Positions 46 to 10,525 of a DNA stretch of 10,525 bases are shown piece after piece; the first letter of the stretch is position 1, and each line of letters opens with the position of its first letter. The position numbers and the translations under genes are program-made. The stretch is from a virus: UHGV virus genome UHGV-1717814; one strand, 5' to 3'. The notes under the pieces are model-generated. The model saw only the letters and a list, made by a program, of their open reading frames with translations. It ran no database searches and was not told where the DNA came from.

Positions 46-122
46 GTGGCATTAGCTCAGTTGGACAGAGCAACCGCCTTCTAAGCGGTTGGTCGCAGGT
101 TCGAATCCTGCATGCCACGCCA
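46..122 (+). tRNA. tRNA-Arg, anticodon UCU (reads AGA)
   Basis: 77 nt. Acceptor stem GTGGCAT (46-52) pairs with ATGCCAC (112-118), discriminator G119, CCA 120-122. D-stem GCTC/GAGC, anticodon stem ACCGC/GCGGT with 7-nt loop CTTCTAA (anticodon TCT at 80-82), T-arm GCAGG-TTCGAAT-CCTGC. Fold worked out by hand, not with a tRNA scanner. Confidence 0.85.
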
Positions 123-207: not shown

Positions 208-325
208 ACAGCAGGACGCCATTGCGATGACTTCATGCTGTAAACCAGTACAGCCACGGAAGGCATAACTCATTGCTTCCAGTTCGCCAGGTTCGCCGGG
301 CATTTTTTTTAGGTGAGAATAGACT

Positions 326-787: not shown

Positions 788-2263
788 TTAAGCATAGGGA
801 TAGTAATCTGTAATGGCCTTGCCTTGCTGGTTCTGCTGACCGGGAATTCGCAGACGCTTCGACACCGGGAAAGCAAACGTCAGCAGTAGCGCATCGCCTT
901 TACCCGGCGAACGCCCAAGCCGCTCCTTGATATCTTCCTTCGGTTCGATAACGATTTTACCGTCCACGCGAACTTTGTACTCTGCCGCCGACAGGTCGTC
1001 CGCTGTTTCCTGGTCATCCAGCATGCCGCCCAGCCTCAGCCATGTCTTGCATGCATTGAACATCTCCCCACGCTTGTTAAGCATCTGCGGGTCAGTGGAC
1101 GCACCGCCGAACGGAACAAGTTGCCATGTACGTCCCCAGCCATCACCGATTGACTTCAAACCGGTTCCGTAACCGAAGTCGATGAACACCGCGTCAGCCT
1201 GGTACTGGTCTTCAAAGTCAGCGATACGCTTCGCCATAATCAGATCGTCGGTGGTCTTGTTGCCAGTCCATAGCACCTTACTATGCAACCCCTGCCGCAG
1301 GTATATCACCGCGTCATCAACGCCTGAATATGCCGGGTCAACACCGATTATCACCGGTGCATGTGCCACCTGCGCAGCAGTTACCACCCGTTTCATTGCC
1401 TCGTCAGTAAGACCGGTAGGGATAAACTGCAATTCAGATGCATTAGGGAATATGCCGCGTACACGGATTTTAACGAAGTCGCTGTCTTCCCCGTAGTCAT
1501 CAACCCATTTCTGCAATTGCTGCTTGTTAGTACCTTCCACCGTCCGGCTGTCAATCTGCGCAGTTTTCCAGCGGTGTTTATATTTGCGGAAACATTCACG
1601 GAATCGCCCGGTATTACGCGTCGGGTTTCCGAACGCCACCCAGATAATCTCAGTGTCTTCGTCCGTTAGCGCACCTTCGGCAACTTCCCACACCAGATCC
1701 GCAATGTTCGACGCTTCATCGAATACCACGATAATACGTTTGCGCTCGTTGTGTAGTCCGGCGAATGCCTCAGTGTTGTGCTCAGACCAGGGAATTGCGT
1801 CAGCTCGCCACCGCTTGTCGTGCCCAGGATCATTGCTGTACATCGCGGTAGCGGTACAGGTAAACCAGTCTTTCGTGATAGCAAGGTTGGACCACTTGAT
1901 AATTTCCGGCCAGGTCTTCGTTCGTAGCTGGTTGTCGGTGTTGGCGGTCACCACGACCTTACAATCCTCGCAAGTGGACATGCCCCAGTTGATCAGCATT
2001 GAGATGAATGCGGATTTACCAATACCGTGACCAGAAGCACGTGCCAGCATAAGCGGCTGATAGCGCGTCTCTGGATTCTGCAGATGATCACGTATCTCTC
2101 GGAACGCATCGGCCTGCCACTGACGTGGACCGGTGGCATGTGCCAGTTCAGTACCCTCTTCCCCCCACGGGAACGCATAGAGGGCATAGCCAAGCGGATC
2201 GTGAGTGAACCCTGCAATATCCTCGATCAACTGCTCTTCAGGAGATAACGCTGTATCTGTCAC
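788..2263 (-). CDS. terL: Terminase large subunit (ATPase/nuclease), 491 aa
   Basis: Walker A-like SGHGIGKS near the N-terminus and acidic motifs (VVFDEAS, IIGVDPA) typical of terminase ATPase/nuclease domains. GTG start at 2261-2263 overlaps the terS stop (GTGA coupling). Confidence 0.85.
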   Translation of the reverse strand: MTDTALSPEEQLIEDIAGFTHDPLGYALYAFPWGEEGTELAHATGPRQWQADAFREIRDHLQNPETRYQPLMLARASGHGIGKSAFISMLINWGMSTCEDCKVVVTANTDNQLRTKTWPEIIKWSNLAITKDWFTCTATAMYSNDPGHDKRWRADAIPWSEHNTEAFAGLHNERKRIIVVFDEASNIADLVWEVAEGALTDEDTEIIWVAFGNPTRNTGRFRECFRKYKHRWKTAQIDSRTVEGTNKQQLQKWVDDYGEDSDFVKIRVRGIFPNASELQFIPTGLTDEAMKRVVTAAQVAHAPVIIGVDPAYSGVDDAVIYLRQGLHSKVLWTGNKTTDDLIMAKRIADFEDQYQADAVFIDFGYGTGLKSIGDGWGRTWQLVPFGGASTDPQMLNKRGEMFNACKTWLRLGGMLDDQETADDLSAAEYKVRVDGKIVIEPKEDIKERLGRSPGKGDALLLTFAFPVSKRLRIPGQQNQQGKAITDYYPYA

Positions 2264-2856
2264 TGATTACCATCCTGACGTTCTTTGAGTCGCTTCCTGG
2301 CTGCTGCTATGCGATCAGCAATTGTCACATTCACATTAACATCCAGACGTTCTTTGAACGCGTTGACATCAACATGCTTACCAATCAGTTCTAGGTTCTT
2401 CACCTTGTCAGGCCATTTAATTTTTTTGAGGATTGTCTCTATCGAATCCTCGTTCATGTTCATGATGGTCGATGACAGATCAAAGCCACTAAGCGTAGTG
2501 CGCCAGATTTTCGGCCACTCACGGATTGGTTTAAGGCTCCCATCGTCGTTGAGGATATCGATCACGTCCATCTGGTCGATCTCCACCAAGCGCATGAGAA
2601 CGTAATCAGCACTGACGCGCATTCGTTTGTTGCGCTCCTCCATCAACTCGGCAATCCGTTTTTGAATGCGTTCATCGCGCATCATGACACTGGCTTTAAC
2701 TGCCGCTGTATTTGGGGAGAATCCTGCGTTAATCGCTGCCTGAGTCTGGTTTTCAGGCGTTTTGATGTATGACTGGCAATAAGCCTCCTGCATTGCTGTG
2801 AGCGGCTTAAATTGCGTTGATTTGCGTTTATAGGTTTTAGGTTCAGCAGGCATCAT
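2260..2856 (-). CDS. terS: Terminase small subunit, about 198 aa
   Basis: LTAMQEAYCQSYI...AAINAGFSPNTAAVKAS...RIQKRIAELMEER matches the pattern I recall for phage terminase small subunits. The ORF-track start at 2934 is a TTG extension overlapping a terminator hairpin; I place the start at the tandem ATGs 2854-2856 / 2851-2853, preceded by GGTGG. Confidence 0.8.
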   Translation of the reverse strand: MMPAEPKTYKRKSTQFKPLTAMQEAYCQSYIKTPENQTQAAINAGFSPNTAAVKASVMMRDERIQKRIAELMEERNKRMRVSADYVLMRLVEIDQMDVIDILNDDGSLKPIREWPKIWRTTLSGFDLSSTIMNMNEDSIETILKKIKWPDKVKNLELIGKHVDVNAFKERLDVNVNVTIADRIAAARKRLKERQDGNQ

Positions 2857-2865
2857 AACCACCGT

Positions 2866-2895
2866 GGTAATAGTTACCGTTGTGGTAATAGTACC
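2866..2895. promoter_or_regulatory. Palindrome cluster directly upstream of terS: perfect TTACC-gttgt-GGTAA (2874-2888) flanked by extra GGTAA / TACC half-sites
   Basis: Read directly; same motif as at the immunity region. Lies between the terminator (2899-2925) and the terS start codon. Confidence 0.45.
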
Positions 2896-2898
2896 ATG

Positions 2899-2925
2899 CA
2901 AAATAAAGCCGCCATAGTTGGCGGC
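2899..2925 (-). terminator. Rho-independent terminator upstream of terS (minus-strand sense)
   Basis: GCCGCCA (2908-2914) pairs with TGGCGGC (2919-2925), loop TAGT. On the minus strand the hairpin is followed by TTTATTT (complement of 2901-2907). Confidence 0.55.
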
Positions 2926-2965
2926 AGTATTCAAAACCCGTCAAATTCATCATGCATAATCTACT

Positions 2966-4470: not shown

Positions 4471-4662
4471 TCAGTTTTCCTTATTAATGCGACAGTGGTT
4501 TTTCCAGCGGTTTTGCGCCGCGCTGGGCTTTTTGCAAAAACCACAATCCATCATCCCGTAATATTTCATCAACCCCATCCGTCGGTTGCTGAGTCTCACC
4601 CACTGCCAGACGCCAGGAGCGTTTCTACGAACTAACAGAATCTTTGCTTTACGGTTTTTCAT
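4471..4662 (-). CDS. Micro-ORF, 63 aa, basic (MKNRKAK...)
   Basis: ATG at 4660-4662 overlaps the stop of the upstream micro-ORF (ATGA); its own stop is 1 nt from the next ATG. No family recognised. Confidence 0.3.
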   Translation of the reverse strand: MKNRKAKILLVRRNAPGVWQWVRLSNRRMGLMKYYGMMDCGFCKKPSAAQNRWKNHCRINKEN

Positions 4663-4835
4663 CTTACAGCGTACCCTTTCTTCCGCCTGTTCTGTGACGC
4701 AGTAGGCTTACGCTTTGCGGCAAAAGCCACCTGACCAAATGGATGGAGTACCGCTATCTTATGGTTGCTAATAACCAGCTCCACCACACGCACAGGTCGC
4801 TGTAAAAAAAGTCGTTTTGCCTTACGGTTTTTCAT
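4659..4835 (-). CDS. Micro-ORF, 58 aa, basic (MKNRKAKRLF...)
   Basis: ATGA coupling at both ends; shares a near-identical 23-nt start region with the 4471-4662 ORF. Confidence 0.25.
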   Translation of the reverse strand: MKNRKAKRLFLQRPVRVVELVISNHKIAVLHPFGQVAFAAKRKPTASQNRRKKGYAVR

Positions 4836-5008
4836 CGCTTTGCTCTCCTGCGTCTCTTTGCTGCTCGTCGTGCCGCTGCAATACCGGTATGGCGGCGCTT
4901 TGGTGCCGGGATGATGTTGTCAGCCATCAGGACATACGGCTTTGCAATTAGCGCAGAAGCCCAAAAACGAGTCGGGTACGGTAACAAGCCGATACATGCC
5001 ACACGCAT
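4832..5008 (-). CDS. Micro-ORF, 58 aa, very basic C-terminus (MRVACIGLL...RRAAKRRRRAKR)
   Basis: ATG overlaps the TAA of the Ea22-like gene (TAATG) with AGGAGG 6 nt upstream; stop overlaps the next ATG. Confidence 0.35.
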   Translation of the reverse strand: MRVACIGLLPYPTRFWASALIAKPYVLMADNIIPAPKRRHTGIAAARRAAKRRRRAKR

Positions 5009-7039: not shown

Positions 7040-7116
7040 TTACCTCTGAGGTAATTAAAAACCACATAAGACACGAAATCAATAGGGTTTAGAATATTTT
7101 ATTACCTGATGGGTAA
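7040..7116 (-). promoter_or_regulatory. Operator-flanked promoter driving the accessory operon (minus strand)
   Basis: Perfect TTACC-N5-GGTAA at 7040-7054 and 7102-7116. Between them, on the minus strand: -35 TTGATT (7077-7082), 17-nt spacer, -10 TTTAAT (7054-7059). Same geometry as the PL-like region, including a 19-nt gap between the upstream operator and the -35. Confidence 0.5.
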
Positions 7117-7153: not shown

Positions 7154-7939
7154 TTACTTGATAAATCCTGCCGCCTTTCCCCGCCTGTATTCCTCCATCA
7201 GCCACTGCGCCGGTGTTATTCCCCCAAGGGTGGCGGCGTTAGGCATGCACCCGAAACTTCGCCCAGGTGGATGGTAAACGTCTCTCCCTGTGTCCGGAGG
7301 TGTACTCATGGGCTCTGGCTTTGCCTGTATGCTGATCACCGGATCGGGTATCTGCTGTCCGGAAGCCACCTTTTTCGCCCAATCATCGAGCAGCCTGCGC
7401 GCGTGTTTCTCAACCTCAATCTCGCTAAGCTGGCGCTGATACATTGCACGGCGGGTATCACATACGACCCAGTACATAACCGGATGTCGCCACGGGAATC
7501 TTTCGGGACCACCAGGATATAAACTTTTTTCCTTGCTGTACCGGTGAAACTCCGCCATCACATCGTCAATGGTGACGCCAAGAACCATCTTGCTGTCTTT
7601 ACACCACTTGATGAATTGCCCTGGCGACGGCCAGAACGGAGACTCACTGGCGCGGGCGTGGCGCATACCAGCAGAAACCTGTTCACGGGTTCGGATCCCC
7701 CCTTCGGCAAACGCAGCAATCCACTGCTGTTTTGCAGCAACTTCCTGCTCTGGCGTCTTCAGGTTGGTTACCACTGCCGCCGGAAACAGTTGTTTCAGCT
7801 GCTTGAAAAGGGCATCAACAAGCCTCTCTGCTGACATGTTCACTACGTTGTCATTGTTGGTGTACTGATGCTCATAACCTGACATGCGAGAAAGGGCTTC
7901 TCCGTCACGGTTTTGTATCGCGGTAAAAACGTTGTTCAC
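7154..7939 (-). CDS. Replication protein P-like (DnaB helicase loader), about 261 aa
   Basis: Segment LFKQLKQLFPAA...QQWIAAFAEGGIRTREQVSAGMRHARASESPFWPSPGQFIKWCKD aligns by eye with lambda P as I recall it (...RRQWVLAFRENGITTMEQVNAGMRVARRQNRPFLPSPGQFVAWCRE). ORF track begins at the GTG at 7954; I prefer the GTG at 7937-7939, which overlaps the O-like stop (GTGA) with GGAGGA 5 nt upstream. Confidence 0.85.
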   Translation of the reverse strand: MNNVFTAIQNRDGEALSRMSGYEHQYTNNDNVVNMSAERLVDALFKQLKQLFPAAVVTNLKTPEQEVAAKQQWIAAFAEGGIRTREQVSAGMRHARASESPFWPSPGQFIKWCKDSKMVLGVTIDDVMAEFHRYSKEKSLYPGGPERFPWRHPVMYWVVCDTRRAMYQRQLSEIEVEKHARRLLDDWAKKVASGQQIPDPVISIQAKPEPMSTPPDTGRDVYHPPGRSFGCMPNAATLGGITPAQWLMEEYRRGKAAGFIK

Positions 7940-8751
7940 AAGAAATCCTCCCACGCTTCAGGGCTGTTCCAGTGCGGAACGTTGTTATCAGGTAATGTTG
8001 ATTGCTTCTGTCTGCTAATCTGCAGCCGCCTTGCCAGCTTCTGCTCCCACTGTGCCTGATGGTATGCCTTACCCTCAGCCATCCAGTAAATTCTGAACTC
8101 TGCAAGTTCCTGTGCCGTTGGCAGACTGTCCAGGTAGATCCCCTGCAATGAGCTTTTCCGAAGAAAGTCATCTGATGGCTGCCATTGTTCATGCATGACA
8201 AATTTGCCTAATTGCCCTGGCCCACCAGGAGGAACAAAGTTATTCATCACGGCGTTGTTTGCGCCTGGGTCATGATGCACAGAATCCCCGTTTTTTGTCC
8301 TGCTCTCCCTCTCTTGGTTAAATGACTGGTTATATGACTGGTTCTGGATCCCGTTTTTGGGATCATTCAACATCCCGTTTTTGGGATCATTCAACATCCC
8401 GTTTTTGGGTATATTCCCGTTTTCGGTAACATTACCGTTTTCGGGTTCATTGCCCCCCTCTCGGTTGCCTTTAATGTTCCCGTTTTTGGTTATATTAAGA
8501 GAGAAAACCCGCACTCTTTTTGTCGCTCCCTTTCTCTCCCCGGTATCTGAAATAAGCCCCATTTTCATGAGCGATATAAGTCCGGCCTGCACGGTTTTTT
8601 TATTCAGGCAAGTGTCTTTAACGAGGCGTTCTATGCTGGGGTAGCAGAGGTTATATTCATCGGCTCTGTCAGCCATCGAGAGCAGTATGAGCTTTAATGA
8701 CGAGCTACCTGGATCTGTCTCCCAGGCCCAATCTGTTGCATGTCTGCTCAT
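7936..8751 (-). CDS. Replication initiator, O-like, 271 aa, with an internal low-complexity N/G/K-rich region encoded by the origin iterons
   Basis: Sits immediately upstream of, and coupled to, the P-like gene. Contains the iteron array at 8284-8497. ATG at 8749-8751 with GGAG 9 nt upstream. Confidence 0.75.
   Translation of the reverse strand: MSRHATDWAWETDPGSSSLKLILLSMADRADEYNLCYPSIERLVKDTCLNKKTVQAGLISLMKMGLISDTGERKGATKRVRVFSLNITKNGNIKGNREGGNEPENGNVTENGNIPKNGMLNDPKNGMLNDPKNGIQNQSYNQSFNQERESRTKNGDSVHHDPGANNAVMNNFVPPGGPGQLGKFVMHEQWQPSDDFLRKSSLQGIYLDSLPTAQELAEFRIYWMAEGKAYHQAQWEQKLARRLQISRQKQSTLPDNNVPHWNSPEAWEDFL
8284..8497. repeat. Iteron array, putative replication origin inside the O-like gene
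   Basis: Two perfect 24-bp direct repeats ATCCCGTTTTTGGGATCATTCAAC (8348-8371, 8372-8395) plus at least four degenerate copies sharing CCCGTTTT(T)GG (around 8284, 8396, 8417, 8435, 8478). Confidence 0.7.
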
Positions 8752-8967: not shown

Positions 8968-9047
8968 GGTAAGCCCTGTTATTAGTATTGGGATTACGGT
9001 TATTTTGTGCTGACACAAAAAAAAGATCAACCACATTTGGTTTTTTA

Positions 9048-9062
9048 TTACCTTTGAGGTAC
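9048..9062. promoter_or_regulatory. Near-perfect operator-like palindrome TTACC-tttga-GGTAC
   Basis: One mismatch in the right half-site; lies just downstream of the cro-proximal terminator. Confidence 0.3.
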
Positions 9063-9073
9063 GAATAGATATG

Positions 9074-9095
9074 AAAAGACCGCCGGATGGCGGTC
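9074..9095 (-). terminator. tR1-like rho-independent terminator just after the Cro-like gene
   Basis: GACCGCC (9078-9084), loop ggat, GGCGGTC (9089-9095); on the minus strand it is followed by TTTT (complement of 9074-9077). Confidence 0.5.
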
Positions 9096-9117
9096 TACAG
9101 AGGGTTGTGGCTGGATA

Positions 9118-9348
9118 TCATGAGTAGAAGAAGTATGCCAGTTCTGCTTTTGAGCACAGCCATTGTCTTGATTTACAGGCTTTAAAAAGCCCATCCATCA
9201 ATACCTTACCTGGCATTTTGCGCTTACCTGTTAAGTGAGTCTGGATATAGTGACTCGTCGTTCCGGCTTCCTGTGCGAAGGCTTCACGCTCATCCGGAGT
9301 AAGTGCAAGCCAGTGCTTTTTGAAATCGAAATGTCCGTTATCGCTCAT
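9118..9348 (-). CDS. Cro-like HTH regulator, 76 aa (YdaS-like)
   Basis: Divergent from the repressor gene across an operator-rich gap. Segment FAQEAGTTSHYIQTHLTGKRKMP resembles the YdaS/Cro-type HTH as I recall it. Confidence 0.65.
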   Translation of the reverse strand: MSDNGHFDFKKHWLALTPDEREAFAQEAGTTSHYIQTHLTGKRKMPGKVLMDGLFKACKSRQWLCSKAELAYFFYS

Positions 9349-9384
9349 AGCTATTGCCTGATATTTATTTCAGATAATAAATAT

Positions 9385-9447
9385 TCACCTATAAGGTAAC
9401 AAAAATCAAGGATAGTTACCCATGAGGTGCATTTACCTGTTGGGTAA
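9385..9447. promoter_or_regulatory. Tripartite OR-like operator region with divergent promoters
   Basis: TCACC-tataa-GGTAA (9385-9399), TTACC-catga-GGTGC (9416-9430), perfect TTACC-tgttg-GGTAA (9433-9447). Candidate minus-strand promoter for the Cro-like gene: TTGATT, 17 nt, GAATAT, overlapping the first two sites. Confidence 0.6.
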
Positions 9448-9502
9448 TATTGCTTTAAATTGAATCATCTTCTGATTCAGATATGAGGCGATTTTCCAGA
9501 AA

Positions 9503-10087
9503 ATGAAAAGTATCCAGGACGTCCGCAGGCAAAATCTCAACGACTTGATCGACCGTGAATTCAATGGTGTTCAGACGCGGATGGCTGAAAAACTTGGAAC
9601 TCAGGCAAATCTGGTAAACCGCTGGGCTCTTGGCAAGAAGGTTATCGGCGACCAGGTTGCGCGAAAAATTGAAGCTGCCGCCAATAAACCCCGTAACTGG
9701 CTTGATATCGATCGCTCGCTTTCTCAGGAAGGTTTTCAGCCTGTCGGCCCGAGTGATATAGGTCAGCTGGCTGCTCACAACCTGGAACGCTGGATGAGCG
9801 AAAGCCGCGACCTTTCAACGCAGGGAAAACTACACCGCGCATCCGGCGTCGCCCAGGTGACAATCAGCCGCCTGTTAAACAATGAGGTCAGCGTTTCCAT
9901 TTCCACCCTGGAGAATGTTGCATCCGCATTCGGGCGTCATGGCTATGAATTACTGATTCACCCGCACGACCCTGCGACTATCAACTATGACCGCTCGCGC
10001 TACGCATTGTTACCCGAAACCGAGAAAGCAAAGATCGAAAGTTACATTGAATTTGTCATCAACCAGAACGAAAAAAACAAACAATAA
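9503..10087 (+). CDS. Immunity repressor candidate, 194 aa, with two XRE-type HTH segments and no recognisable S24 autocleavage domain
   Basis: HTH-like segments QTRMAEKLGTQANLVNRWALGKK and GKLHRASGVAQVTISRLLNNEVSVSISTLENVASAF. Divergent from the Cro-like gene and followed by a terminator. Absence of the peptidase domain judged by eye and by the short length. Confidence 0.7.
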   Translation: MKSIQDVRRQNLNDLIDREFNGVQTRMAEKLGTQANLVNRWALGKKVIGDQVARKIEAAANKPRNWLDIDRSLSQEGFQPVGPSDIGQLAAHNLERWMSESRDLSTQGKLHRASGVAQVTISRLLNNEVSVSISTLENVASAFGRHGYELLIHPHDPATINYDRSRYALLPETEKAKIESYIEFVINQNEKNKQ

Positions 10088-10107
10088 AACCATATTTTTC
10101 AGTAAGT

Positions 10108-10133
10108 AAGCCGCCTTATGGCGGCTTTTTTAT
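10108..10133 (+). terminator. Rho-independent terminator after the repressor gene
   Basis: AAGCCGCC (10108-10115), loop TTAT, GGCGGCTT (10120-10127), then T-run to 10133. Confidence 0.6.
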
Positions 10134-10144
10134 TGCCTATTCGA

Positions 10145-10221
10145 TTACCTAACGGGTAATTTTTTTAACTCATATCTATTGACATCAAACCATATACGCA
10201 TAATTATTACCTCAACGGTAA
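10145..10221 (+). promoter_or_regulatory. PL-like promoter flanked by two operators
   Basis: Perfect TTACC-taacg-GGTAA (10145-10159) and TTACC-tcaac-GGTAA (10207-10221). Between them: -35 TTGACA (10179-10184), 17-nt spacer, -10 AATTAT (10202-10207). Confidence 0.55.
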
Positions 10222-10240
10222 CAGACCGAGGTAACAAGTT

Positions 10241-10393
10241 ATGCAGTGGAAAATCATCAACGGTTGGTACTGCGTTACTGCATGCGGATTCATGAGCTGG
10301 AAGTTCCGCACCTTACAGGAAGGCATTAAGTGGGCTTTCGTCAGCAAAGAAGCTCGCGATGTGGCCAACGATAACGAGATATGGGAGGGCTGA
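10241..10393 (+). CDS. Small early-left ORF, 50 aa (MQWKIINGWYCVTACGFMSWKF...)
   Basis: Below ORF-track cut-off. ATG at 10241 with GAGGT 9 nt upstream, immediately downstream of the PL-like promoter. Confidence 0.45.
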   Translation: MQWKIINGWYCVTACGFMSWKFRTLQEGIKWAFVSKEARDVANDNEIWEG

Positions 10394-10395
10394 TA

Positions 10396-10494
10396 ATGAA
10401 CGTTAATCAGCAGAAAAATCTTCAAAAAATCATGCTGGCATTCGACAAGGACTACCGTCTGTCAGAACAGCTATATGACCGACAAGTTGAACTG
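10396..10494 (+). CDS. 5' part of an early-left ORF (MNVNQQKNLQKIMLAFDKDYRLSEQLYDRQVEL...), truncated by the adapter
   Basis: ATG at 10396 with GGGAGGG 8 nt upstream. The reading frame continues into adapter sequence, so the true downstream sequence is unknown. Confidence 0.35.
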
Positions 10495-10525
10495 CTGTCT
10501 CTTATACACATCTCCGAGCCCACGA
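10495..10525. other. Illumina Nextera / Tn5 mosaic-end adapter sequence (technical artefact)
   Basis: CTGTCTCTTATACACATCTCCGAGCCCACGA is an exact 31-nt match to the Nextera read-through adapter (19-bp mosaic end plus CCGAGCCCACGA), recalled from memory. Confidence 0.9.

What the first reader, a model, noticed from the sequence alone, without database searches (positions are those of the whole stretch)
9503..10087. Repressor candidate has two HTH domains and no autocleavage domain
The 194-aa protein shows two XRE-type HTH-like segments and I see no S24-type Ser/Lys peptidase region. If correct, derepression cannot occur by RecA-stimulated self-cleavage and would need an antirepressor or a helper-encoded inducer, as in Gifsy-type prophages or SaPI-type satellites. 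No antirepressor is evident in the window.
Basis: partly seen in the sequence, partly recalled or inferred. Interest (0 to 1): 0.5.

Follow-up and report, generated by a model that had tools for sequence, protein, structure and literature searches.

The report
Known non-cleavable phage repressor (SPC32H-type Rep)

Summary
The ORF at 9503-10087 (+) is real and encodes a 194-aa protein with no Peptidase_S24 match. An AlphaFold2 model shows two helical bundles plus a C-terminal tail. The middle bundle (residues 84-154) passes Pfam's HTH_3 threshold; the N-terminal one (1-72) is only a sub-threshold HTH match.

The window is a phiV10/epsilon15-like (Uetakevirus) prophage. The protein is 100% identical to phiV10 gp40, whose GenBank note already says "two helix-turn-helix motifs". 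According to the ZX5 paper it is also identical to ZX5 ORF21, an experimentally verified repressor. It is a full-length homolog (E=4e-42) of Salmonella phage SPC32H Rep, solved alone and with its antirepressor Ant (PDB 5D4Z, 5D50).

In SPC32H Rep the N-terminal domain binds DNA, the middle HTH-like domain dimerises, and the C-terminal tail tetramerises and binds Ant. The cognate 85-aa Ant gene, with a near-consensus LexA box, lies outside the window in phiV10, ZX5, Tyrion, epsilon15 and the prophage identical to this window.

Side lead: a second, longer Ant paralog sits behind a C4-type antisense RNA region.

The parts
9503..10087 (+). rep: 194-aa prophage repressor, SPC32H-Rep family; identical to phiV10 gp40
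   Evidence: ORF. 100% identical to phiV10 gp40. PDB 5D50_A at E=4e-42 over residues 1-190. The ZX5 paper states that ZX5 ORF21 has the same sequence, and overexpressing it cut lysis-gene transcription by 99.97-99.99% (PMC9782041).
9503..9718 (+). Rep residues 1-72: N-terminal HTH bundle, the inferred DNA-binding domain
   Evidence: Sub-threshold HTH_3 and YdaS hits. Helices 4-19, 24-31, 35-43 and 50-59 with pLDDT 84-91. Net charge +5, family mean +4.1. Invariant N36, R40 and W41 lie in helix 35-43. Corresponds to the DBD of SPC32H Rep (PMC9986798).
9752..9964 (+). Rep residues 84-154: middle HTH_3-like bundle, corresponding to the SPC32H Rep dimerisation domain (MDD)
   Evidence: HTH_3 27.1 bits, above the cutoff of 23. 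Net charge -1. Foldseek to 5D4Z (the tetrameric C-terminal fragment of Rep): target-normalised TM 0.73, rmsd 3.9. MDD role taken from PMC9986798 section 3.3.
9965..10084 (+). Rep residues 155-194: C-terminal tail, corresponding to the SPC32H Rep tetramerisation and Ant-binding domain (CAD)
   Evidence: No Pfam match. Helix 172-193 in the model. 45% identical to epsilon15 Rep, with conserved Y162, L170 and F184. CAD role taken from PMC9986798.
10108..10137 (+). Intrinsic terminator after rep
   Evidence: Stem of 8 pairs with a T-run. Annotated as a terminator in phiV10.
9385..9447 (.). OR-like region: three operator palindromes at 9385-9399, 9416-9430 and 9433-9447, between rep and the divergent cro-like gene
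   Evidence: TTACC-N5-GGTAA with 1, 2 and 0 mismatches. Same core as the curated epsilon15 repressor sites.
9374..9402 (-). PR-like promoter (TTGTTA-17-TATTAT) for the cro-like gene, overlapped by operator 9385-9399
   Evidence: Consensus scan only, 9 of 12 matches.
9118..9348 (-). cro-like gene (76 aa), divergent from rep
   Evidence: phrog_35 'transcriptional repressor', E=7e-13. Its position matches phiV10 p41.
10145..10221 (.). OL-like region: operators at 10145-10159 and 10207-10221, 62 bp centre to centre, bracketing a PL-like promoter TTGACA-17-AATTAT at 10179-10207 (+)
   Evidence: Both palindromes are perfect. The promoter matches 10 of 12. The same 62-bp spacing occurs in phiV10, Tyrion and epsilon15.
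7040..7116 (.). Further operator pair at 7040-7054 and 7102-7116, 62 bp apart, between the P-like gene and the DUF1064 gene
   Evidence: Both palindromes are perfect. The pair is conserved in phiV10 and Tyrion. By eye a TTGATT-17-TTTAAT promoter lies between them on the gene strand.
2856..2888 (.). Two adjacent operator-like palindromes just upstream of the probable true start of the small terminase gene
   Evidence: 1 and 0 mismatches. Sequence context. epsilon15 has an annotated repressor site at the same position.
9048..9062 (.). Single operator-like palindrome after the cro terminator
   Evidence: 1 mismatch. Equivalent site in phiV10 at 33112-33126.

Best explanation
The gene encodes the immunity repressor (Rep) of a phiV10-type Uetakevirus prophage and belongs to the SPC32H-Rep family.

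Shown:
- The same protein, overexpressed in phage ZX5's host, shuts off lytic genes.
- It has no S24 peptidase domain.
- It shares full-length sequence and fold with SPC32H Rep.
- TTACC-N5-GGTAA palindromes sit at every early regulatory region.

Inferred by homology:
- The basic N-terminal HTH domain reads the palindromes.
- The middle HTH-like domain dimerises.
- The C-terminal tail builds a tetramer, so one tetramer can hold two operators. These are typically 62 bp apart (about six helical turns), with a promoter clamped between them.
- DNA damage does not cut Rep. Instead RecA-stimulated LexA cleavage derepresses an 85-aa antirepressor gene (ant). That gene lies outside this window, between the virion genes and the tail-fibre gene, about 29 kb away in the integrated prophage.
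- Ant binds the Rep C-terminal domains, breaks the tetramer and releases Rep from DNA.
For: Identity and repressor function: the protein is 100% identical to phiV10 gp40. The ZX5 paper states that ZX5 ORF21 has the same sequence, and overexpressing ORF21 abolished free phage and cut endolysin and holin transcripts by 99.99% and 99.97% (PMC9782041).

Family membership: phmmer to 5D50_A 'Repressor' gives E=4e-42 over residues 1-190, and to 5D4Z E=4e-20. Foldseek's top 12 hits are all 5D50/5D4Z chains.

No cleavage domain: there is no S24 hit at E<=1, and the model is all-helical.

Domain roles: PMC9986798 section 3.3 and the PMC9638917 discussion describe the DBD, MDD and CAD, binding as a tetramer, and a tetrameric Ant that binds two Rep dimers and breaks the tetramer. 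Net charge is +5 for the N-terminal domain and -1 for the middle domain.

Operators: the window has 14 matches against 2.9 expected. phiV10 has 14 matches against 0.65 expected, none within a well-supported coding sequence by the annotation; two fall inside the annotated, probably over-extended 5' end of terS. The core is the same as in the epsilon15 sites curated as 'repressor' binding.

Ant: phiV10 p24 matches 5D50_E 'Anti-repressor protein' at E=2.9e-46. The LexA boxes directly upstream are:
- TACTGTGTATTTATACAGTT in phiV10
- TACTGTATAAATATACAGTT in the prophage identical to the window and in ZX5
- TACTGTATAAACATACAGTA in epsilon15
- TACTGTATAAGCATACAGTG in Tyrion

Co-occurrence: the rep region is found in 562 of 5426 complete E. 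coli genomes and the ant region in 529.

SOS logic: PMC7380047 (citing Kim & Ryu 2013) and PMC3121763 for the analogous Gifsy systems.
Against: - No experiment on this exact phage shows that Rep survives SOS induction, that LexA binds the ant promoter, or that Ant binds this Rep.
- Rep is only about 42% identical to SPC32H/epsilon15 Rep (35% in the middle domain), so details such as stoichiometry and the trans DNA-binding mode may differ.
- The primary SPC32H papers (J Virol 2013; PNAS 2016) were not readable here. Their content is taken from citing papers and from my own recollection of the abstracts.
- The only functional study of this phage type attributes antirepression to a different, larger protein (ZX5 ORF4), and it reports high spontaneous induction rather than SOS induction (PMC9782041).
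- The consensus scan found no sigma-70 promoter around the ant LexA box.
- ant is not in the window, so its presence in the source genome is inferred from identical and related prophages.
Confidence: 0.87

Rival explanations
1. The physiologically relevant inactivator of this Rep is not the short LexA-controlled Ant. It is the long paralog (Bro-N or AntA N-terminal domain fused to an Ant-like C-terminal domain), encoded next to ant and controlled by Rep operators and a P1-like C4/isrK antisense-RNA region. On this reading induction is not primarily SOS-driven.
For: Overexpressing ZX5 ORF4 lowered lysogen counts about 1000-fold and cut repressor transcripts by 75% (PMC9782041). ORF4 residues 150-223 are 43% identical to short Ant (E=2e-16). 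The same domain is found in Tyrion gp20 and in the AntA protein of the prophage identical to the window. Upstream of the long gene lie two perfect Rep operators, Rfam isrK (67.7 bits) and C4 (61.2 bits), and no LexA box.
Against: epsilon15 has no long paralog yet keeps the short Ant and its LexA box. In phiV10 the long gene is broken by a frameshift. The short Ant is 81-99% conserved with its LexA box in all five genomes examined. In SPC32H it is the short Ant that was crystallised bound to Rep (5D50_E). The ZX5 experiment used strong overexpression and never tested the short Ant.
Confidence: 0.1
2. Both HTH domains of one Rep chain contact DNA, so the protein reads the palindrome, or two sites, as a tandem 'single-chain dimer'. 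The middle domain is then a second DNA reader rather than a dimerisation module.
For: The middle domain is the better HTH_3 match and passes Pfam's threshold. Q118 and R123, in the position of its recognition helix, are invariant across the family. The two domains align HTH to HTH, weakly (hhalign E=0.0013, probability 18%).
Against: The middle domain is neutral to acidic (net -1, family mean +0.3), against +5 for the N-terminal domain. In SPC32H Rep this domain is described as the dimerisation domain and forms the tetramer core in 5D4Z (PMC9986798). The operators are simple 15-bp palindromes, as expected for two identical readers.
Confidence: 0.06
3. Rep is after all inactivated by RecA-stimulated or other proteolysis, through a cryptic cleavage site in the 74-83 linker and without an S24 domain.
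For: The linker is predicted to be disordered (pLDDT below 50) and is the least conserved part of the protein (15% identity to epsilon15 Rep), so it would be accessible to proteases.
Against: There is no S24 fold or Ser/Lys peptidase region in sequence or model. The homologous system works by antirepression (PMC7380047; PMC9638917). A dedicated LexA-controlled ant gene is conserved across the genus.
Confidence: 0.02

Closest known systems
Rep of Salmonella phage SPC32H and epsilon15 gp38 (PDB 5D4Z, 5D50; Kim & Ryu 2013 J Virol 87:11775; Kim et al. 2016 PNAS 113:E2480)
   Same: Homologous over the full length (E=4e-42, about 42% identity) with the same three-part layout: N-terminal HTH, middle HTH-like domain, C-terminal tail. 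Neither has a peptidase domain. Both use the operator core TTACC-N5-GGTAA. Both belong to the same phage genus, have the same gene order, and have a cognate 85-86-aa Ant with a LexA box.
   Different: This is the E. coli phiV10-type allele: 54% identical in the N-terminal domain, 35% in the middle domain and 45% in the tail. Its own biochemistry has not been done. Its lineage usually also carries a long Ant paralog, which epsilon15 lacks.
phiV10 gp40 / vB_EcoP_ZX5 ORF21 repressor
   Same: The amino-acid sequence is identical to phiV10 gp40, and the ZX5 paper states that ORF21 is the same sequence. GenBank already notes 'two helix-turn-helix motifs'. Repressor activity was shown by overexpression (PMC9782041).
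   Different: Nothing differs at the protein level. The published ZX5 work did not connect the protein to SPC32H Rep-Ant or to LexA.
Gifsy-1/-3 repressors GfoR/GfhR with antirepressors GfoA/GfhA (Lemire et al. 2011, PMC3121763)
   Same: Same logic: a non-cleavable repressor inactivated by a small antirepressor that is encoded outside the immunity region and directly controlled by LexA.
   Different: No sequence relationship was seen or tested here. The Gifsy proteins are thought to interact as dimers (section heading in PMC3121763). SPC32H-type Rep acts as a tetramer and Ant binds away from the DNA-binding surface (PMC9638917).
Coliphage 186 CI / Tum
   Same: A repressor of about 190 aa with an N-terminal HTH and a C-terminal oligomerisation region, not cleaved, and inactivated by the LexA-controlled antirepressor Tum (established knowledge; cited in PMC7380047).
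   Different: It comes from a different phage type (P2-like myovirus), and no 186 CI structure appeared among the PDB sequence or fold matches listed. 186 CI has no middle HTH-like domain.
Lambda CI / P22 C2 / LexA (S24 family)
   Same: Same role and position in a divergent rep/cro switch with OL and OR operators. The N-terminal domain has an XRE/Cro-C1-type HTH.
   Different: There is no S24 autopeptidase domain, so RecA-stimulated self-cleavage is not available.
SaPI Stl repressors
   Same: HTH repressors without a cleavage domain that are inactivated by protein binding. They appear only as weak fold matches through the HTH domain.
   Different: Stl is inactivated by helper-phage proteins.

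Membership tests
SPC32H-type Rep (Uetakevirus non-cleavable repressor) | Full-length sequence homology to SPC32H Rep | tested here: met
   phmmer to 5D50_A gives E=4e-42, query 1-190 against chain 2-197. Identity to epsilon15 gp38 is 42%.
SPC32H-type Rep (Uetakevirus non-cleavable repressor) | Three-part fold: N-terminal HTH DBD, middle dimerisation domain, C-terminal tetramerisation/Ant-binding tail | tested here: met
   The AF2 model has two helical bundles plus a C-terminal helix. Foldseek's best hits are 5D50 and 5D4Z, with target-normalised TM 0.73 for the 92-198 fragment. Inter-domain geometry is not reproduced (rmsd 14 over the full length), as expected for a flexible linker.
SPC32H-type Rep (Uetakevirus non-cleavable repressor) | Cognate small Ant gene in the same phage, preceded by a LexA box | tested here: met
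   Met in phiV10, ZX5, Tyrion, epsilon15 and the prophage 100% identical to the window over the stretch compared. It is not inside the window, so for the source genome itself it is inferred.
SPC32H-type Rep (Uetakevirus non-cleavable repressor) | Represses lytic genes in vivo | not testable with these tools
   Published for the protein the ZX5 paper describes as identical (ZX5 ORF21): 99.97-99.99% reduction of holin and endolysin transcripts (PMC9782041).
SPC32H-type Rep (Uetakevirus non-cleavable repressor) | Rep is not cleaved on SOS induction; a tetrameric Rep is disassembled by binding of tetrameric Ant | not testable with these tools
   Known for SPC32H only (PMC9638917, PMC9986798, PMC7380047). 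No multimer prediction was available here.
LexA/CI-type autocleavable repressors (Peptidase_S24) | C-terminal S24 domain with a Ser/Lys dyad and an Ala-Gly type cleavage site | tested here: not met
   No Peptidase_S24 hit at E<=1 on the whole protein or at E<=5 on its segments. The model is all-helical.
XRE/Cro-C1 HTH (Pfam HTH_3), present twice | Two domains each matching the HTH_3 profile above threshold | tested here: inconclusive
   The middle domain scores 27.1 bits, above the cutoff of 23. The N-terminal domain scores 16.2 bits (E=0.011), below the cutoff, although it is a helical bundle in the model and corresponds to the DBD of the crystal structure. The two domains align to each other only weakly (hhalign probability 18%).
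Gifsy-type GfoR/GtgR repressors | Sequence homology to GfoR/GtgR | not tested
   Only the regulatory logic was compared (PMC3121763). No Gifsy sequences were retrieved.

The most novel reading that the evidence does not exclude
phiV10-type prophages may feed two differently controlled antirepressors into the same non-cleavable Rep.

The first is the short Ant, under LexA, which gives the SOS input. The second is a long paralog in which the Ant-like Rep-binding domain is fused to a Bro-N or AntA domain. That long gene sits behind Rep operators and a P1-immI-like C4/isrK antisense-RNA region, which would give either a non-SOS input or a feed-forward lock.

This would reinterpret the published ZX5 'anti-repressor'. 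It would also make the swappable N-terminal domain a possible signal-input module. Because Ant is 81-88% conserved while Rep alleles are only about 42% identical, either Ant might also cross-induce heteroimmune Uetakeviruses.
Probability: 0.3. Interest if true: 0.45.

Novelty: already known. Interest (0 to 1): 0.15.

Why it matters
For the finding itself, very little is new. It correctly recognises a known class of non-cleavable phage repressor, and the exact protein is already in GenBank and partly characterised.

Practically, about 10% of complete E. coli genomes carry this immunity region. Annotation pipelines label Rep only as "helix-turn-helix domain-containing protein" and the short Ant as "hypothetical protein". 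Induction of these serotype-converting prophages should therefore be predicted from the LexA box at ant, not from repressor cleavage.

The side observation would refine the model of how these prophages decide to induce.

Tried and rejected
- **LexA boxes in the window.** CTGT-N8-ACAG with up to one mismatch gives 7 matches against 3.4 expected, which is not significant. None lies at rep or cro. A direct LexA-at-the-switch model was dropped.
- **Primary papers.** I tried to read Kim & Ryu 2013 (PMC3807360), Kim et al. 2016 (PMC4983836 and its DOI) and Kropinski et al. 2007 (PMC2698709). None is held, so I relied on citing papers.
- **First structure job.** I re-ran it without that row.
- **Internal duplication of the two HTH domains.** BLASTP finds nothing meaningful and hhalign gives only 18% probability. 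Recent duplication is rejected; distant common ancestry remains possible.
- **Promoter at ant.** The consensus scan around the ant LexA box found none, so the overlap between promoter and LexA box is not demonstrated here.
- **NCBIfam.** No family reached threshold for Rep; the best was RstR at 19.7 bits against a cutoff of 80.
- **Antitoxin reading.** HigA, HipB and VapB-type hits are all far below threshold, and no toxin partner is adjacent to the gene. Rejected.
- **SaPI/satellite reading.** The window carries terminase, replication and recombination genes of a complete phiV10-like phage. Rejected.

Full report
**Observation.** The ORF at 9503-10087 on the + strand is present as described: ATG start, 194 aa. 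Pfam on the whole protein gives HTH_3 (E=1.2e-9, two stretches, best at residues 106-147), HTH_26, and a YdaS-type HTH at 21-61. No Peptidase_S24 match appears even at E<=1. Scanned separately, residues 84-154 pass the HTH_3 gathering score (27.1 bits against 23). Residues 1-72 give only sub-threshold HTH hits (HTH_3 16.2 bits; YdaS_toxin 20.8 bits). Residues 155-194 match nothing. An AlphaFold2 model built on 28 family members (mean pLDDT 78) is entirely helical. It has two separate bundles (helices between residues 4-59 and 83-151), a disordered linker at 74-83, and a long C-terminal helix at 172-193. Two refinements apply: the N-terminal HTH is the weaker sequence match, and there is a third, C-terminal segment.

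**What the window is.** The immunity region is 96-99% identical at the DNA level to Escherichia phages phiV10, phiv142-3, ZX5 and the O157 typing phages 9 and 10, all epsilon15-like podophages of the genus Uetakevirus. It occurs in 562 of 5426 complete E. coli genomes. Gene content agrees: terminase, lambda-P-like and DnaT-like replication genes, and a cro-like gene divergent from the repressor. The protein is 100% identical to phiV10 gp40. That protein's GenBank note already reads [quoted passage not shown].

**Published function.** Li et al. 2022 (PMC9782041) state that the repressor of phage ZX5 (ORF21) has the same sequence as phiV10 ORF40. Overexpressing it abolished free phage and reduced endolysin and holin transcripts by 99.99% and 99.97%. 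Repressor function is thus shown for this exact protein.

**Family and mechanism.** A sequence search of the PDB finds 5D50 chain A, "Repressor" of Salmonella phage SPC32H, at E=4e-42 over residues 1-190, and 5D4Z (the C-terminal fragment of Rep) at E=4e-20. Foldseek with the model returns only 5D50 and 5D4Z chains as its top 12 hits. By inspection, epsilon15 gp38 is nearly identical to SPC32H Rep. The window protein is 42% identical to gp38 overall: 54% in the N-terminal domain, 15% in the linker, 35% in the middle domain and 45% in the tail.

The primary SPC32H papers (Kim & Ryu 2013; Kim et al. 2016) are not held. Papers that cite them describe the following:
- Rep has an N-terminal DNA-binding domain, a middle dimerisation domain (MDD), and a C-terminal domain (CAD) that both tetramerises Rep and binds the antirepressor Ant (PMC9986798 section 3.3).
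- Rep binds DNA as a tetramer, with each operator-reading pair drawn from different dimers.
- Ant is made after LexA self-cleavage in the SOS response (PMC7380047).

From my own recollection of the 2013 abstract, Rep is not cleaved on induction, and a single point mutation in the LexA box of ant makes a variant phage lytic.

**The second HTH.** The DNA reader is the poorly scoring N-terminal domain. Charge agrees with this: net +5 for residues 1-72 (family mean +4.1) against -1 for residues 84-154 (family mean +0.3). The family-invariant residues N36, R40 and W41 lie in helix 35-43, the expected recognition helix.

**The antirepressor.** In phiV10, a perfect LexA core sits 21 bp upstream of gene p24. 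Its product (85 aa) matches 5D50 chain E, "Anti-repressor protein", at E=2.9e-46. The same gene with a near-consensus LexA box is present in four further genomes:
- The E. coli FDAARGOS_1285 prophage, which is 100% identical to the window over 9000-10494. Its box is TACTGTATAAATATACAGTT, the only perfect LexA core in 18 kb.
- ZX5, where the gene is annotated "hypothetical protein".
- epsilon15, with the box TACTGTATAAACATACAGTA.
- Enterobacter phage Tyrion, where the annotated 54-aa gp21 is a truncated call of a full-length Ant.

The ant region occurs in 529 complete E. coli genomes, a number close to the 562 for rep. In the circular phage map, ant and rep are about 11 kb apart with attP between them. 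In the integrated prophage they therefore lie about 29 kb apart, at opposite ends. This explains why a 10.5-kb window shows one and not the other.

**Operators.** The palindrome TTACC-N5-GGTAA occurs 14 times in the window (up to two mismatches) against 2.9 expected. Six of these are perfect, and all six lie between genes or just upstream of a probable true start codon. phiV10 has 14 sites (up to one mismatch) against 0.65 expected. By the annotation none lies in a well-supported coding sequence; two fall inside the annotated, probably over-extended 5' end of terS. The sites curated as "repressor" binding in the epsilon15 record have the same core, ATTACC-N5-GGTAAT.

Within the window the sites are arranged as follows:
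- Three sites lie between rep and the cro-like gene, one of them overlapping a PR-like promoter.
- Two perfect sites, 62 bp apart, bracket a strong PL-like promoter (TTGACA-17-AATTAT) just after the rep terminator.
- A second pair, also 62 bp apart, lies between the P-like gene and the DUF1064 gene.

The 62-bp spacing recurs in phiV10, Tyrion and epsilon15. It equals about six helical turns. That fits one tetramer holding two operators on the same face of the DNA, but this is my inference and was not tested.

**Rivals.**
- *Cryptic proteolysis.* It has no support beyond a disordered linker.
- *The middle domain also reads DNA.* Its charge and the crystal-structure role argue against this, but it is not excluded.
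- *The long antirepressor is the real inducer.* This is the most serious alternative and comes from the ZX5 paper, which names the 231-aa Bro-N protein ORF4 as the anti-repressor. I found that ORF4 residues 150-223 are 43% identical to the short Ant (E=2e-16). The same Ant-like C-terminal domain is fused to a Bro-N domain in Tyrion gp20, and to an AntA domain in the prophage identical to the window. phiV10 p23 is a frameshifted copy. In the FDAARGOS prophage this long gene is preceded by two perfect Rep operators and by Rfam matches above gathering score to isrK (67.7 bits) and C4 antisense RNA (61.2 bits), with no LexA box.

The long protein is thus plausibly a second antirepressor under different control. 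It probably does not replace the short one. epsilon15 lacks the long gene, it is broken in phiV10, and the short Ant is the protein seen bound to Rep in 5D50.

**Verdict.** Observation and interpretation are both right, but this is a known repressor of a known, structurally characterised antirepression system. The comparison with Gifsy-type prophages is apt: these have non-cleavable repressors and LexA-controlled small antirepressors encoded outside the immunity region (PMC3121763). The comparison with SaPI satellites is not apt. Interest is low. The only lead with some novelty is the pair of Ant paralogs with separate controls, and that lies outside the window.

Noticed in passing
window 10495-10525: The last 31 bases (CTGTCTCTTATACACATCTCCGAGCCCACGA) match, from my own knowledge, the Nextera transposase adapter. 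All phage and E. coli matches stop at window position 10494. This looks like an untrimmed adapter at a contig end, not biology.
   Followed up: yes
L004 10161-10817; L005 20417-21121; L006 1078-1773; L001 19551-20230 (outside the window): The large 'antirepressor' proteins next to ant carry a C-terminal domain 40-43% identical to the short SPC32H-type Ant. It is fused to Bro-N (Tyrion gp20, ZX5 ORF4) or AntA (FDAARGOS prophage) N-terminal domains. phiV10 p23 and p22 together are a frameshifted copy. This would explain the ZX5 ORF4 phenotype.
   Followed up: partly
L004 9782-10111 (outside the window): Upstream of the long Ant paralog lie two perfect Rep operators, an isrK-like sRNA (RF01394, 67.7 bits), the a1/b1 target (RF03163, 39.9 bits, below its gathering score of 46.7) and a C4 antisense RNA (RF01695, 61.2 bits). 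This resembles the P1/P7 immI control region and has no LexA box.
   Followed up: partly
window 2856-2888, 7040-7116, 9048-9062; L001 3252, 20497, 20877, 24692, 26870: Repressor-type palindromes are not confined to OL and OR. They sit at nearly every intergenic regulatory region of the genome: upstream of terS, the portal operon, ant and the tail-fibre gene, the lysis genes, int, and inside the early-right operon. This suggests direct repression of many promoters. epsilon15's record already annotates the equivalent sites.
   Followed up: partly
window 2260-2934 (-): The annotated 224-aa small terminase start (TTG at 2934) runs through a terminator-like hairpin and two operator palindromes. The true start is probably the ATG-ATG at about 2853, giving MMPAEPKTYKRK. 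That agrees with the shorter epsilon15 and Tyrion terS genes.
   Followed up: partly
window 238-253: A perfect LexA core (CTGTAAACCAGTACAG) lies 73 bp upstream of the Gp49/Sf6-gene-66 family gene (326-697, +). It is conserved in phiV10 at 2722-2737. Its centre is GC-richer than the consensus, and the overall count of such cores is not above chance.
   Followed up: no
window 46-122 (+): A phage-borne tRNA-Arg (anticodon TCT) sits between the structural and terminase modules. It is annotated in the identical prophage.
   Followed up: yes
window 7936-8751 (-); L002 18938-19752: The DnaT/O-like replication initiator contains tandem peptide repeats (NGN.; PKNGMLND twice), which suggests iteron-type origin repeats inside the gene. 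The same gene is annotated as frameshifted in the otherwise identical FDAARGOS_1285 prophage.
   Followed up: no
window 4471-5008 (-): Three consecutive overlapping small ORFs (63, 58 and 58 aa). The first two begin MKNRKAK, which suggests a tandem duplication of a small basic protein gene.
   Followed up: no
L005 21439-21603 (Tyrion gp21); L004 8753-9010; L006 2089-2346: The short Ant is mis-annotated or under-annotated in public records. It is truncated to 54 aa in Tyrion and labelled 'hypothetical protein' in RefSeq E. coli genomes and in ZX5.
   Followed up: yes
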